A stretch of 10,495 nucleotides of DNA from a virus (IMGVR_UViG_2671181188_000007); one strand, 5' to 3'. Shown: positions 1 to 7,305, counted from the first letter of the stretch. Made by a program: numbers and translations. The notes: generated by a model not told the origin, from the sequence alone.

Positions 1-255
1 TTAAAAAATGAGGTGTCAAAAGGAAAACTGATTGACACCGGGTTCTGTATTTTTGCCCTCAGTAAGCTGGCAATGGCGTTATCCAGTACGCTTGATTCCA
101 TCCCTTTATCCATGCAGCGACAGTTTCCTGATTTAACACCGCGCCATCTTGACCATCTGAAAACCCTTATTGCTAAGGGGGCAAATCAGTGTGCGCGGGC
201 AGGGGATAAATTACCGGATTTACTTGATGAATATATCAGAGCAACAACTGAATAA
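1..255 (+). CDS. nu1: Terminase small subunit (lambda Nu1-like), C-terminal part; 5' end lies upstream of the window
   Basis: Frame 1 is open from base 1 to the stop at 253-255. The translation (..TGFCIFALSKLAMALSSTLDSIPLSMQRQFPDLTPRHLDHLK..LPDLLDEYI..) aligns with the C-terminal ~75 aa of lambda Nu1 as I recall it (..TAFCTFVLSRIAGEIASILDGLPLSVQRRFPELENRHVDFLK..IPGLLSEYI..). It overlaps the start of the next gene, as in lambda. Confidence 0.85.
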   Translation, partial: LKNEVSKGKLIDTGFCIFALSKLAMALSSTLDSIPLSMQRQFPDLTPRHLDHLKTLIAKGANQCARAGDKLPDLLDEYIRATTE

Positions 256-2156
256 TATGATGAGCGCTGTCACAACTGCATTACAGCCCCTGATAAGGGC
301 ATTGCCGGTGACGCCAGTTGAATGGGCTGATCAAAATTATTATCTGCCTAAAGAATCTTCATATGGTGAGGGCGAATGGAAAACGCTGCCATTCCAGATC
401 GCCATCATGAACAGTATGGGGAATGATCAGATCCGCACTGTTAATCTGATTAAATCTGCCCGTGTTGGCTATACAAAGATGTTGCTGGGGGGGGGGCGGG
501 TATTTTATTGAGCATAAATCCCGAAACAGTCTGCTTTTTCAGCCCACGGATTCTGCCGCTGAAGATTTTATGAAGTCTCACGTGGAGGCGACGATTCGGA
601 ACGTGCCATGCCTGAAAGACCTTTCCCCATGGCTGGGTCGTAAACATCGTGACAATACTCTCACGCTGAAACGCTTTTCATCGGGCGTCGGTTTCTGGTG
701 CCTGGGCGGCGCTGCCGCCAAAAACTACCGTGAAAAATCCGTTGACGTGGTCTGCTATGACGAACTTTCCTCGTTCGAGCCGGATGTCGAAAAAGAGGGC
801 TCGCCAACCCTGCTGGGGGATAAGCGTATTGAGGGGTCGGTGTGGCCAAAATCCATTCGCGGCTCGACGCCTAAAATCAAAGGCACCTGCCAGATCGAAA
901 AAGCCGCTAACGAGTCGGCGCATTTTATGCGTTTTTATGTGCCCTGCCCGCACTGTGGGGAGGCGCAGTATCTGAAATTTGGCGATGAGTCCACGCCTTT
1001 TGGGCTTAAATGGGAGAAGGACAGCCCTGAAAGTGTTTTCTACCTCTGTGAACATCATGGCTGCGTGATCCATCAGTCTGAACTGGACCAGAGCAACGGG
1101 CGGTGGATCTGTGAAAACACGGGCATGTGGACCCGTGACGGTCTGACGTTTTTCAGCGCCCGGGGTGATGAAATTCCGCCGCCGCGCTCCATCATGTTCC
1201 ATATCTGGACGGCGTACAGTCCGTTCACCACCTGGGTACAGATTGTCTATGACTGGCTGGATGCACTGAAAGATCCCAACGGCCTGAAAACCTTTGTGAA
1301 CACCACGCTGGGCGAGACCTGGGAAGAGGCCGTGGGCGAAAAACTCGATCACCAGGTACTGATGGATAAGGTGGTGCGTTACACGGCGGCGGTGCCTGCC
1401 CGGGTGGTTTATCTGACGGCGGGCATTGACTCGCAGCGAAACCGTTTTGAGATGTATGTCTGGGGATGGGCTCCGGGAGAGGAAGCCTTTCTGGTGGATA
1501 AAATCATCATTATGGGGCGTCCTGATGAGGAAGAGACGCTGTTACGTGTGGATGCGGCGATCAACAAAAAATACCGCCATGCGGATGGCACCGAAATGAC
1601 TATTTCCCGTGTCTGCTGGGACACCGGGGGGATCGATGGTGAAATTGTTTATCAGAGATCAAAAAAACACGGTGTTTTCCGGGTGCTGCCGGTAAAAGGC
1701 GCATCTGTCTATGGCAAGCCGGTGATCACCATGCCAAAAACCCGCAATCAGCGGGGCGTGTATCTGTGTGAAGTGGGAACGGACACCGCAAAAGAAATTC
1801 TCTATGCCCGTATGAAAGCCGATCCCTCGCCTGCGGATGAAGCCACGTCGTATGCCATCCGTTTTCCTGATGATCCGGAGATTTTTTCGCAGACAGAGGC
1901 GCAGCAACTGGTGGCGGAAGAGCTGGTGGAGAAGTGGGAAAAAGGAAAGATGCGTCTGCTGTGGGATAACAAAAAGCGGCGTAACGAAGCGCTGGACTGC
2001 CTGGTGTATGCCTACGCGGCATTACGTGTGTCCGTGCAACGCTGGCAGCTTGATCTGGCTGTACTGGCAAAATCCCGGGAAGAAGAGACGACCCGGCCAA
2101 CCCTGAAAGAACTGGCAGCGAAGCTGTCCGGAGGAGTGAATGGTTACAGTCGCTGA
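227..2156 (+). CDS. A: Terminase large subunit (lambda gpA-like), reading frame broken by a 1-bp frameshift in a G10 run at 487-496; present as two ORFs (227..511 and 462..2156)
   Basis: ATG at 227 gives MNISEQQLNN...VEWADQNYYLPKESSYGEGEWKTLPFQIAIMN...KSARVGYTKMLLGGG, which matches the lambda gpA N-terminus (MNISNSQVN...VEWADANYYLPKESAYQEGRWETLPFQRAIMN...KSARVGYSKMLLG). The match continues in the +1 frame (ORF 462..2156: ..YFIEHKSRN...GFWCLGGAAAKNYREKSVDV...TAYSPFTTWVQIV...FVNTTLGETWE...KRRNEALDC..) through to the gpA C-terminus. Removing one G from the run restores a single ORF of lambda-like length. Confidence 0.9.
487..496. repeat. G10 homopolymer tract inside the terminase large subunit gene; site of the frameshift
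   Basis: Direct read: ctg-gggggggggg-c-ggg. Lambda-like homology is in frame 2 before the run and frame 3 after it. Confidence 0.9.
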
Positions 2157-5871: not shown

Positions 5872-6138
5872 ATGGGATTGTTTACGACCCGCCAGTTACT
5901 CGGTTATACCGAACAAAAAGTGAAATTTCGTGCGCTGTTTCTGGAGCTGTTTTTCCGCCGTACGGTGAATTTCCATACCGAAGAGGTGATGCTGGACAAA
6001 ATTACCGGAAAAACGCCGGTGGCGGCCTATGTCTCTCCGGTTGTTGAAGGAAAAGTGCTGCGTCATCGCGGTGGTGAAACCCGCGTGTTACGTCCGGGCT
6101 ACGTCAAGCCGAAACACGAATTCCCCTGGAGCCGGTAA
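5872..6138 (+). pseudogene. E: Major capsid protein (lambda gpE-like), N-terminal ~83 codons only; truncated by a deletion
   Basis: ATG at 5872 with an RBS. MGLFTTRQLLGYTEQKVKFRALFLELFF...[31 protein letters not shown] matches the lambda gpE N-terminus (MSMYTTAQLLAANEQKFKFDPLFLRLFF...[31 protein letters not shown]). Homology stops at KPKHE and the ORF ends 5 codons later; lambda gpE is ~341 aa. Confidence 0.85.
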
Positions 6139-6860
6139 AAGGAGCCGGTACCACCCTGTGGGTTTATAACGGTCAGGGTGACGCCTATGCAAACCCGTTG
6201 TCAGACGATGACTGGCAGCGACTGGCTAAGGTGAAGGATCTGACGCCGGGCGAGATGACGGCAGAATCCTACGATGATAACTACCTGGATGATGAAGACG
6301 CGGACTGGACCGCGACCGGGCAGGGGCAGAAATCTGCAGGTGATACCAGTTTTACGCTGGCCTGGAAACCGGGAGAGGAAGGCCAGAAAGGGCTTATAGG
6401 CTGGTTTGAAAGCGGCGATGTCCGGGCCTATAAAATCCGTTTTCCGAATGGCACGGTGGATGTGTTTCGTGGCTGGGTCAGCAGTATCGGTAAGGCCGTG
6501 ACGGCGAAAGAAGTGATCACCCGCACGGTGAAAGTCACTAACGTGGGTAAACCTTCTGTAGCGGAAGAACGCAGCAAAATTACGCCGGTCAGTGCGATTA
6601 AGGTGACGCCGACATCCGGTACGGTGGCAAAAGGGAAAACAACCACCCTGACGGTTTCTTTTGAGCCGGAAAGTGCAACCGACAAGACGTTCAGAGCGGT
6701 TTCCGCCGATCCGTCGAAAGCCACCATTAGTGTGAAAGATATGACAATTACGGTAAACGGCGTGGCGACAGGTAAGGTGCAGATCCCTGTGGTGAGCGGA
6801 AATGGTCAGTTCGCCGCAGTGGCTGAAGTCACCGTTACTGAAGCGGGCGCTGCAGGGTAA
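6126..6860 (+). CDS. V: Major tail protein (lambda gpV-like) with C-terminal Ig-like domain; lacks its native start and first ~8 codons (ORF track picks TTG at 6198)
   Basis: Frame 3 reads ..[78 protein letters not shown]...[41 protein letters not shown]...[28 protein letters not shown]. This is near-identical to lambda gpV from residue ~9 ([37 protein letters not shown]...). There is no in-frame ATG or GTG upstream before the stop at 6075-6077. Confidence 0.85.
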
Positions 6861-6873
6861 ACGGAGGTCATAC

Positions 6874-7305
6874 ATGTTTCTGAAAACAGAACAATTTGAA
6901 TATAACGGTGTGTCTGTCACGCTTTCCGAATTGTCTGCGCTGCAGCGTATCGAGCATCTTGCCCTCCTGAAACGGCGTGCAGAACAGGCAGAATCCAGCG
7001 GCAACCTGCAGGTAAGCGTGGAAGATCTCGTCAGAACCGGCGCGTTTCTGGTGGCGATGTCCCTGTGGCATAACCATCCACAGAAAACGCAGTCACCGTC
7101 AATGAATGAGGCCGTGATGAAGATAGAGCAGGAAGTGCTCACCACCTGGCCTGCCGATGCCATTGCCCGGGCGGAAGACGTGGTGTTGTGCCTGTCCGGG
7201 ATGAGCGGGGCTGTTCGTCCGGATACTGATATTACTGAAGTGGCGAAAAATAACACGCTGACTGATGATGATTTTTCTGCGGGAAAGTCTTCGACGGCGA
7301 GCTGA
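6874..7305 (+). CDS. G: Tail assembly chaperone (lambda gpG-like)
   Basis: ATG at 6874 with GGAGG at 6862-6866. MFLKTEQFEYNGVSVTLSELSALQRIEHLALLKRRAEQAES...TGAFLVAMSLWHNHPQKTQSPSMNEAV..IEQEVLTTWP.. matches lambda gpG (MFLKTESFEHNGVTVTLSELSALQRIEHLALMKRQAEQAES...). It ends ..SAGKSSTAS*. Confidence 0.92.
   Translation: MFLKTEQFEYNGVSVTLSELSALQRIEHLALLKRRAEQAESSGNLQVSVEDLVRTGAFLVAMSLWHNHPQKTQSPSMNEAVMKIEQEVLTTWPADAIARAEDVVLCLSGMSGAVRPDTDITEVAKNNTLTDDDFSAGKSSTAS
7281..7287 (+). promoter_or_regulatory. -1 programmed ribosomal frameshift slippery heptamer G GGA AAG (G to G-T fusion)
   Basis: GGGAAAG lies in the G zero frame as G.GGA.AAG, 6 codons before the G stop. The -1 frame downstream is open to 7745 and encodes the gpT homologue. 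This is the same heptamer and position as the well-known lambda G-T frameshift. Confidence 0.85.

What the first reader, a model, noticed from the sequence alone, without database searches (positions are those of the whole stretch)
470..520. Large terminase gene broken by a single-base frameshift in a G10 homopolymer
gpA homology switches from frame 2 to frame 3 exactly at the 10-G run (487-496). With 9 G the reading would be KMLLGGGGYFIEHK, collinear with lambda KMLLGVYAYFIEHK, giving one intact ORF. As written the N-terminal ~95 codons end at TGA 509-511 and the rest restarts from GTG 462. This is either a homopolymer sequencing/assembly error, a genuine inactivating mutation consistent with a decaying prophage, or a slippage-prone tract that could toggle terminase expression. 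I know of no programmed frameshift in lambda-like large terminase genes, so I would not claim one.
Basis: partly seen in the sequence, partly recalled or inferred. Interest (0 to 1): 0.5.

Follow-up and report, generated by a model that had tools for sequence, protein, structure and literature searches.

The report
Slippage-prone poly-G frameshift, prophage terminase
A run of ten Gs breaks the DNA-packaging (large terminase) gene of an already crippled lambda-like prophage of E. coli O157:H7. The run changes length between strains (7 to 12 Gs), so this is an ordinary slippage mutation in a decaying gene, not a special decoding mechanism.

Summary
G10 lies at 487-496. gpA homology runs in frame 2 up to the run (ATG 227, stop TGA 509-511, 94 codons) and in frame 3 after it (to 2156). 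Removing one G gives a 642-aa protein colinear with lambda gpA (66% identity).

The window is the Sp4/Sp14 (CP-933M-type) late region of E. coli O157:H7. These are two near-identical defective prophage copies that share a 2.5-kb deletion from E into V.

Other E. coli prophages read GGGGGTGGTC (LGVVGY) at this site. Two T>G changes made an in-frame G9 (LGGGGY), which Sakai has in both copies and EDL933 in CP-933M.

Run length varies. Complete genomes with an exact copy: G8 34, G9 194, G10 174, G11 34, G12 3. The two copies in one genome often differ. Three assemblies of strain 86-24 all show G8, so length is reproducible.

G10 is therefore a real +1 slippage allele, annotated "frameshifted" by PGAP. 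The window itself looks like a draft scaffold (N runs), so an error in this copy cannot be excluded.

Nothing supports programmed frameshifting, and there is no evidence of selection for switching. Interest is low.

The parts
1..255 (+). 3' remnant of nu1 (terminase small subunit), with stop TAA at 253-255. Window base 1 corresponds to the first base after the ISEc8 insertion in Sakai Sp4.
   Evidence: PGAP annotates a partial 'terminase small subunit, missing N-terminus' at the matching place in TW14359 and EDL933. The ISEc8 repeat_region ends at L014 29827, and window base 1 aligns to 29828.
227..511 (+). N-terminal fragment of terminase large subunit gene A in frame 2: 94 codons plus a premature TGA at 509-511.
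   Evidence: Translation. Pfam GpA_ATPase profile positions 4-45 match. The start MNIS matches lambda gpA.
487..496 (+). G10 mononucleotide run, one G longer than the in-frame G9 allele. This is the frameshift site.
   Evidence: G9 in Sakai Sp4, Sakai Sp14 and EDL933 CP-933M. G10 in TW14359 Sp4 and FRIK2455 Sp14. G11 in strain 7784 Sp14.
497..2156 (+). Remainder of gene A in frame 3: the rest of the ATPase domain and the whole nuclease domain. The frame is open from 450 and the first listed start is GTG 462.
   Evidence: Pfam GpA_ATPase positions 49-247 and GpA_nuclease positions 4-286 match. Colinear with lambda gpA residues 92-638.
5872..6138 (+). Truncated major capsid gene E. The deletion junction lies at about 6113-6122 and fuses it to the start of V. 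E C-terminus, FI, FII, Z and U are missing. This is context showing that the prophage is defective.
   Evidence: The window is colinear with phage PhiR12_1 up to L018 6439 and resumes at 8952. PGAP calls it 'major capsid protein, missing C-terminus' in both the Sp4 and Sp14 copies.

Best explanation
The window is the late (head/tail) region of the Sp4/Sp14-type (CP-933M-type) defective lambdoid prophage of E. coli O157:H7.

In this lineage, two T>G substitutions turned the usual GGGGGTGGTC (Leu-Gly-Val-Val-Gly-Tyr) into an in-frame G9 run (Leu-Gly-Gly-Gly-Gly-Tyr). The run lies early in the ATPase domain of gene A (large terminase, gpA family), at Pfam profile positions 45-49 of 247.

A run of this length is prone to strand slippage during DNA replication (inferred). 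The window carries the +1 product, G10.

Consequences in the G10 state:
- Translation from ATG 227 ends at TGA 509-511, giving a 94-residue peptide.
- The remaining 550-odd codons, covering most of the ATPase and all of the nuclease, lie in another frame without a convincing start.
- No functional terminase is expected (inferred).

The gene sits in a prophage that has already lost E-FI-FII-Z-U, and nu1 as well in the Sp4 copy. The frameshift is therefore one more lesion in a decaying element, and the run now drifts in length between strains and between the two paralogous copies.
For: Frameshift anatomy.

Identity of the element:
- 99.98% identity over 9.2 kb to TW14359 Sp4 and FRIK2455 Sp14.
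- Sakai annotation of Sp4 and Sp14.
- PGAP flags the gene 'frameshifted'.

Origin of the run:
- O55:H7 CB9615 and O103:H2 12009 read GGGGGTGGTC in intact genes.
- The same allele is in at least 120 IMG/VR contigs. The poly-G allele is in only 8.
- PhiR12_1 reads GGGAGTCGCC and lambda reads LGVYAY.

G10 is a real allele: an exact 90-nt match in 174 complete genomes.

Length polymorphism:
- Complete genomes with an exact copy: G8 34, G9 194, G11 34, G12 3.
- Exact protein products of G7, G8, G9, G10, G11 and G12 were seen on 5, 52, 982, at least 1000, 98 and 30 contigs.
- The two copies differ within one genome. Strain 7784 is G10/G11, strain 319 is G9/G11, F7349 is G9/G8 and TB21-1 is G10/G11.
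- Length is reproducible. Three assemblies of strain 86-24 all show G8 at the same copy.

Decay context:
- The 2.5-kb E-to-V deletion is present in both copies.
- nu1 is disrupted by ISEc8 in Sp4 (PMC2669165).
Against: - The window has N runs and starts exactly where the Sp4 and Sp14 copies begin to coincide. It is probably a draft, possibly collapsed, contig, and its own G count could be wrong by one.
- Many complete genomes are long-read assemblies, whose residual errors concentrate in homopolymers. Some of the G8/G11 counts may be artefacts.
- I did not place run lengths on a strain phylogeny, so the number of independent slippage events is not measured.
- Loss of function in the G10 state, and function of the Gly-Gly-Gly-Gly (G9) protein, are both inferred and not shown.
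Confidence: 0.8

Rival explanations
1. Sequencing or assembly error in this particular window. The true sequence of the source strain is G9 and the gene is intact there.
For: - The window contains two N gaps inside the tape-measure gene, standing for about 184 and 99 nt.
- It begins at the ISEc8 junction, where the Sp4 and Sp14 copies converge.
- It carries two private SNPs absent from seven other O157 copies.
- All three features are typical of a draft scaffold of a two-copy repeat.
- G9 is slightly commoner than G10 in complete genomes, 194 versus 174.
Against: - G10 is found at this site in 174 independent complete genomes.
- The G10-specific 94-aa product is on at least 1000 contigs.
- G10 is therefore a common real allele, and nothing specific indicates an error here. 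The window's flanks are identical to G10 strains such as FRIK2455.
Confidence: 0.12
2. The run is a functional phase-variation switch (contingency locus). Slippage turns the Sp14/Sp4 terminase ON (G9, G12) or OFF, and this modulates trans-packaging and transfer of defective prophages.
For: - Both in-frame and out-of-frame lengths are common, and copies vary independently.
- Asadulghani et al. reported that Sp4 DNA is packaged in Sakai, which has G9 in both copies, and proposed that the Sp14 terminase does it (PMC2669165).
- An A8 run in espW also varies in O157:H7 (PMC12078548).
Against: - Both prophages lack the major capsid gene and four head/tail genes, so any benefit needs several helpers.
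- The length distribution is centred on G9/G10 and falls off symmetrically (34/194/174/34/3). In-frame G12 is rarer than out-of-frame G11. That is what neutral slippage predicts, with no enrichment of in-frame states.
- Three assemblies of strain 86-24 agree, so switching is not very fast.
- The run replaces a Val that is conserved in the four other alleles read here (O55:H7 CB9615, O103:H2 12009, PhiR12_1, lambda) with Gly, so even the ON form may be impaired.
Confidence: 0.06
3. Programmed recoding. Full-length gpA is made from the G10 allele by +1 ribosomal frameshifting or by RNA polymerase slippage on the G run.
For: - tRNA-Gly can re-pair perfectly in the +1 frame within GGG GGG GGG G (by reading).
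- The zero-frame codon after the run is CGG, a rare Arg codon in E. coli (own knowledge).
- Some low-level leakiness is plausible for any long run.
Against: - The frameshift-requiring arrangement is not conserved. Lambda, PhiR12_1, O55:H7, O103:H2, Sakai and EDL933 all have a single ORF.
- The out-of-frame alleles fall into both alternative frames. G8 and G11 need a -1 shift and G10 needs a +1 shift, so no single mechanism fits.
- There is no stimulatory RNA structure. The fold of 470-590 has z = +1.0, and 171 of 200 shuffles fold at least as well.
- The recoding review mentions only a Streptomyces phage terminase bypass (PMC5009743).
Confidence: 0.02

Closest known systems
Phage lambda gpA (terminase large subunit) and related gpA-family terminases, such as that of the lambdoid phage PhiR12_1
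   Same: - Same two Pfam domains, GpA_ATPase and GpA_nuclease.
- 66% identity to lambda gpA over the full length once one G is removed.
- Same gene order, nu1-A-W-B-C-D-E, with A overlapping the end of nu1.
- 96% nucleotide identity to the active phage PhiR12_1.
   Different: - The reading frame is broken at codon 90.
- The Val-Tyr/Val-Val/Val-Ala of the other alleles is replaced by Gly-Gly, encoded by a G run.
- The surrounding prophage lacks E C-terminus, FI, FII, Z and U.
Prophages Sp4 and Sp14 of E. coli O157:H7 Sakai (ECs_1106, ECs_2735) and CP-933M of EDL933. Described as defective prophages by Asadulghani et al. 2009 (PMC2669165).
   Same: - 3-4 differences in 9.2 kb.
- Same E-V deletion.
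- Same poly-G allele.
- The window starts at the ISEc8 junction of Sp4.
   Different: - Sakai (both copies) and EDL933 CP-933M have G9 and an intact A ORF. The window has G10, as do TW14359 and EC4115 Sp4 and FRIK2455 Sp14.
- The 2009 paper treats the Sp14 terminase as intact and attributes the Sp4 packaging defect to nu1::ISEc8. It does not mention the run.
- The 3' end of H and gene M in the window match the Sp14 copy of FRIK2455 and strain 7784, not Sakai or EDL933.
Homopolymeric-tract variation in bacterial genes (contingency loci). A nearby example is the A8 run of espW in O157:H7 REPEXH01 (PMC12078548).
   Same: A mononucleotide run inside a coding region, with +1 and -1 length variants among closely related isolates that shift the frame.
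   Different: - The gene here lies in a prophage that cannot build a capsid.
- No phenotype is known, and switching within a clone has not been measured.
- The length distribution shows no excess of in-frame states.
Lambda G/GT programmed -1 frameshift (tail assembly chaperone)
   Same: It is a genuine recoding site in the same gene cluster, and its slippery GGGAAAG is present in the window at 7281-7287.
   Different: That site is conserved across lambdoid phages and lies at the end of G. The poly-G run in A is confined to one allele lineage, varies in length, and its in-frame form needs no recoding.

Membership tests
gpA-type large terminase (Pfam PF05876 + PF20454) | N-terminal GpA_ATPase domain | tested here: met
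   Repaired protein: 183.8 bits, profile positions 4-247. As written, the match is split 4-45 (frame 2) and 49-247 (frame 3).
gpA-type large terminase (Pfam PF05876 + PF20454) | C-terminal GpA_nuclease domain | tested here: met
   241-242 bits, profile positions 4-286 of 294.
gpA-type large terminase (Pfam PF05876 + PF20454) | Colinear with lambda gpA and in nu1-A-W-B synteny | tested here: met
   66% identity over 639 residues. Synteny.
gpA-type large terminase (Pfam PF05876 + PF20454) | Single uninterrupted ORF (functional gene) | tested here: not met
   Stop at 509-511 after 94 codons. PGAP flags the identical sequence as a 'frameshifted' pseudogene.
Sp4/Sp14 (CP-933M-type) defective prophage of E. 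coli O157:H7 | Near-identity to the Sakai, EDL933 and TW14359 copies, and the shared E-to-V deletion | tested here: met
   2-4 differences in 9211 nt. The deletion junction is shared.
Sp4/Sp14 (CP-933M-type) defective prophage of E. coli O157:H7 | Assignment to the Sp4 copy (nu1::ISEc8) or the Sp14 copy (intact nu1) | tested here: inconclusive
   The window starts at the ISEc8 junction. Its 3' kilobase is identical to Sp14 of FRIK2455 and strain 7784 and differs by 4 SNPs from TW14359 Sp4. It may be a collapsed draft contig.
Phase-variable homopolymeric tract (contingency locus) | Run of 8 or more identical bases inside a coding region, with length variants among close relatives that include in-frame and out-of-frame states | tested here: met
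   Exact copies in complete genomes: G8 34, G9 194, G10 174, G11 34, G12 3. Products of G7-G12 are in the protein collection.
Phase-variable homopolymeric tract (contingency locus) | Variation is biological and not sequencing noise | tested here: inconclusive
   For: three assemblies of strain 86-24 agree on G8; Sakai and EDL933 are G9 while EC4115 and TW14359 are G10. Against: among the near-identical FRIK trio, the Sp14-copy span of FRIK2533 is one base shorter than that of FRIK2455, which could be real or a long-read error.
Phase-variable homopolymeric tract (contingency locus) | High-frequency reversible switching within a clone | not testable with these tools
   Needs read pile-ups or fluctuation assays.
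Phase-variable homopolymeric tract (contingency locus) | The switched gene confers a selectable phenotype | not tested
   Context argues against it, since capsid and head-completion genes are deleted in both copies. Trans-packaging of Sp4 was proposed only for Sakai.
Programmed frameshift / transcriptional slippage | The frameshift-requiring arrangement is conserved among homologues | tested here: not met
   All other alleles are single ORFs without the run. The same allele is in frame in Sakai and EDL933.
Programmed frameshift / transcriptional slippage | Stimulatory element next to the shift site | tested here: not met
   No RNA structure beyond that of shuffled sequence (z = +1.02).
Programmed frameshift / transcriptional slippage | Full-length product made from the shifted allele | not testable with these tools
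   Needs protein detection.

The most novel reading that the evidence does not exclude
The poly-G run acts as a heritable ON/OFF switch for the only potentially intact lambda-type terminase of the Sp4/Sp14 pair. Strains or subclones with G9 or G12 could then package and mobilise these otherwise defective, effector-carrying prophages with capsids borrowed from co-resident phages, and G8, G10 or G11 strains could not. That would be a contingency locus controlling helper-dependent prophage transfer in O157:H7.
Probability: 0.06. Interest if true: 0.6.

Novelty: new member of a known kind. Interest (0 to 1): 0.2.

Why it matters
Practical points:
- The A gene of Sp4/Sp14 flips between "intact" and "pseudogene" in O157:H7 annotations because of one unstable G run.
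- It should therefore not be used as a stable marker. It will also break or confuse short-read assemblies of this two-copy repeat.

Biological point:
- Asadulghani et al. (PMC2669165) proposed that the Sp14 terminase packages Sp4 DNA in Sakai.
- If that is right, many O157:H7 strains (G8, G10, G11 in that copy) would lack this activity. Conclusions drawn from Sakai about mobilisation of these prophages may then not carry over to other lineages.

Beyond that, it is a textbook case of a homopolymer created by point mutation and then drifting by slippage in a gene under little or no selection.

Tried and rejected
- **Programmed +1 frameshift or transcriptional slippage: rejected.** Homologues lack the run, the same allele is in frame in Sakai and EDL933, out-of-frame alleles occupy both other frames, and there is no RNA structure. 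A prfB-like shift at UAU UGA 506-511 was considered by reading and rejected, because tRNA-Tyr cannot re-pair on AUU and the G-rich stretch is poorly spaced.
- **Pure sequencing artefact for the allele: rejected**. It is kept only as a possibility for this window.
- **Restart at GTG 462: no support.** There is no SD-like sequence by reading. ATG 570 has only a weak GAAG upstream.
- **Stepwise origin of the run:** searches for the single-substitution intermediates GGGGGGGGTC and GGGGGTGGGC found none in IMG/VR.
- **Tract outside E. coli:** the poly-G pattern was found in none of the GTDB species-representative genomes.
- **Literature:** two full-text searches found no description of this run. 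Related items were the defective-prophage paper and the espW A8 run. A search for a citable statement of the lambda gpA Walker A position led nowhere useful.
- **Failed look-ups:** NC_002655 (the original EDL933 record) is not in the collection.

Full report
**1. Observation**

The window reads ...AAG ATG TTG CTG GGGGGGGGGG C GGG TAT TTT ATT GAG..., with exactly ten Gs at 487-496.

- From ATG 227 the frame-2 ORF encodes MNISEQ...SARVGYTKMLLGGGRVFY and stops at TGA 509-511, after 94 codons.
- A frame-3 ORF is open from 450 and runs to 2156.
- Pfam places GpA_ATPase profile positions 4-45 on the first fragment. Positions 49-247, plus the entire GpA_nuclease domain, fall on the second.
- Deleting one G gives a 642-aa protein that aligns end to end with lambda gpA (66% identity), with LLGGGGYFIEHK opposite LLGVYAYFIEHK.

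A run of 9 or more G is only mildly unexpected from composition (mean 0.27 per shuffle). What matters is that it sits exactly at the frame switch.

**2. What the window is**

The 1.9-kb gene region is 100% identical to many E. coli O157:H7 chromosomes. There, PGAP annotates it as "phage terminase large subunit family protein, frameshifted".

O157:H7 genomes hold two copies. One is in Sp4 (CP-933M), where nu1 is cut by ISEc8. The other is in Sp14, where nu1 is intact.

- Over 9.2 kb the copies differ from the window by 2-4 bases.
- Both copies share a deletion of about 2.5 kb. Relative to the active phage PhiR12_1, it removes the C-terminal three quarters of E together with FI, FII, Z and U, and joins E to the start of V.
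- Asadulghani et al. 2009 (PMC2669165) classed both prophages as defective in head and tail functions. They attributed the Sp4 packaging defect to nu1::ISEc8, and they proposed that the Sp14 terminase packages Sp4 DNA.

The window itself looks like a draft scaffold.

- It has N runs at 9212-9227 and 9392-9405, which stand for about 184 and 99 nt of the tape-measure gene.
- Its first base is the first base after ISEc8 in Sakai Sp4. That is the point where the two copies become identical.

**3. Origin of the run**

Intact homologues have no run.

| Source | Sequence at the site | Residues |
|---|---|---|
| O55:H7 CB9615, O103:H2 12009 | GGGGGTGGTC | LGVVGY |
| Phage PhiR12_1 | GGGAGTCGCC | LGVAGY |
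| Lambda | (no run) | LGVYAY |

- The GGGGGTGGTC allele is in at least 120 IMG/VR contigs. The poly-G allele is in 8. It is in none of the GTDB species representatives.
- The poly-G allele is therefore derived. Two T>G changes (Val-Val to Gly-Gly) merged G5, G2 and a following G into G9.
- Neither single-substitution intermediate was found.
- One IMG/VR contig (L007) has the same G10 in an O103:H2-like A allele. Only 6 bases differ from O103:H2 12009, and 3 of them are the tract. This indicates either short-patch conversion between prophages or a recurrent origin.

**4. Run length varies and G10 is real**

Directly read copies:

| Strain and copy | Run length |
|---|---|
| Sakai Sp4 | G9 |
| Sakai Sp14 | G9 |
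| EDL933 CP-933M | G9 (intact 1929-nt ORFs) |
| TW14359 Sp4 | G10 |
| FRIK2455 Sp14 | G10 |
| PV15-279 Sp4 | G9 |
| Strain 7784 Sp14 | G11 |

I used queries of about 90 nt, in which a single indel drops identity below 99%. The numbers of complete E. coli genome records with at least one exact copy were:

| Run length | Records |
|---|---|
| G8 | 34 |
| G9 | 194 |
| G10 | 174 |
| G11 | 34 |
| G12 | 3 |

Exact look-ups of the predicted products in the 15-billion-protein collection gave:

| Product | Contigs |
|---|---|
| G9 full length (642 aa) | 982 |
| G12 full length (643 aa) | 30 |
| G10 N-terminal peptide (94 aa) | at least 1000 |
| G11 peptide (115 aa) | 98 |
| G8 peptide (114 aa) | 52 |
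| G7 peptide (93 aa) | 5 |

- The two copies in one genome often differ. Strain 7784 is G10/G11, strain 319 is G9/G11, F7349 is G9/G8, and TB21-1 and ECP19-2498 are G10/G11.
- Three assemblies of strain 86-24 all give G8 at the same locus, so run length is a reproducible property of a strain.
- Some long-read homopolymer errors surely contaminate these counts. Even so, the G10 allele cannot be dismissed as an artefact.

**5. Mechanism**

The best-supported reading is replication slippage at a mononucleotide run that arose by point mutation. The slippage process itself is inferred, not shown.

- G10 is the +1 product of the in-frame G9.
- In the G10 state, the ribosome terminates after 94 residues, early in the ATPase domain at profile position about 45 of 247.
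- The rest of the ATPase and the nuclease domain are out of frame and lack a credible initiation signal (by reading).
- The length distribution is roughly symmetric around G9/G10, and in-frame G12 is rarer than out-of-frame G11. That is the pattern expected from neutral drift, not from selection for in-frame states.
- Both prophages cannot make capsids, so relaxed selection on A is plausible.

**6. Rivals**

- **Programmed recoding is not supported.** The arrangement is not conserved. The out-of-frame alleles fall in both alternative frames. No stimulatory structure is predicted (z = +1.0). The recoding review lists only a Streptomyces phage terminase bypass.
- **A functional ON/OFF switch cannot be excluded.** It would connect to the proposed Sp14-to-Sp4 trans-packaging, but nothing here requires it.
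- **An error in this specific window remains possible**, because the source looks like a draft of a two-copy repeat.

**7. Comparison and novelty**

The gene is a clear member of the gpA large-terminase family by domains, colinearity and synteny. In this window it fails only the "intact ORF" criterion.

The element is the already described Sp4/Sp14 prophage pair, and the frameshift is already flagged in RefSeq annotations.

What I did not find described in two literature searches is that the lesion lies in a length-polymorphic poly-G run created by two T>G changes. As a result, "intact" (Sakai, EDL933) and "frameshifted" (EC4115, TW14359 and many others) are alternative states of the same allele. 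That is a new example of a well-known kind of event, of modest interest.

**8. Verdict**

This is an ordinary slippage frameshift in a decaying prophage gene, with a small residual chance that it serves as a functional switch.

Noticed in passing
window 9212-9227 and 9392-9405: Two runs of N (16 and 14) lie inside the tape-measure gene H. Compared with complete O157:H7 genomes they stand for about 184 and 99 nt, so H appears 252 nt short and broken into several ORFs. This looks like scaffold gaps in a draft assembly, not biology.
   Followed up: partly
window 1 (start of window): Window base 1 corresponds exactly to the first base after the ISEc8 insertion in nu1 of Sakai Sp4. That is the point where the Sp4 and Sp14 copies become identical, and it suggests a contig that begins at a repeat boundary.
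   Followed up: partly
window about 6113-6122 (E/V junction); E remnant 5872-6138, V 6120-6860: A deletion of about 2.5 kb removes the E C-terminus, FI, FII, Z and U and joins E to the start of V. The same junction is present in both the Sp4 and Sp14 copies of several strains, so the two prophages share this region by duplication or conversion.
   Followed up: yes
window 7281-7287 (+): The lambda-type G/GT -1 slippery heptamer GGGAAAG is present near the end of gene G (ORF ending at 7305), upstream of T (7332-7745). This is the genuine programmed frameshift of this gene cluster.
   Followed up: no
L007 (IMGVR_UViG_2563366822_000003) 1-1957, minus strand: The same G10 tract sits in an O103:H2-like A allele that differs from the window at 58 positions. 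It differs from O103:H2 strain 12009 at only 6 positions, and 3 of those are the tract. This indicates short-patch gene conversion between prophages or an independent origin of the run.
   Followed up: partly
window 6036 and 6680: The window has T at 6036 and C at 6680. All seven other O157 copies compared (Sakai Sp4 and Sp14, EDL933, TW14359, FRIK2455, 7784, IMG/VR L009) have C and A. These may be strain-private SNPs or consensus artefacts.
   Followed up: no
window 9406-10495: The 3' end of H and gene M are identical to the Sp14 copy of FRIK2455 and strain 7784. They differ by 4 SNPs from TW14359 Sp4 and by 39-58 SNPs from both Sakai copies and EDL933 CP-933M. This part of the prophage is mosaic between O157:H7 lineages.
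   Followed up: no
L015 (Sakai Sp14) 23143-26621 and 29215-31793: In Sakai Sp14, the tape-measure gene and the host-specificity gene J are each annotated as two CDSs (ECs_2725/2726 and ECs_2719/2720). These are further frameshift lesions in the same prophage.
   Followed up: no
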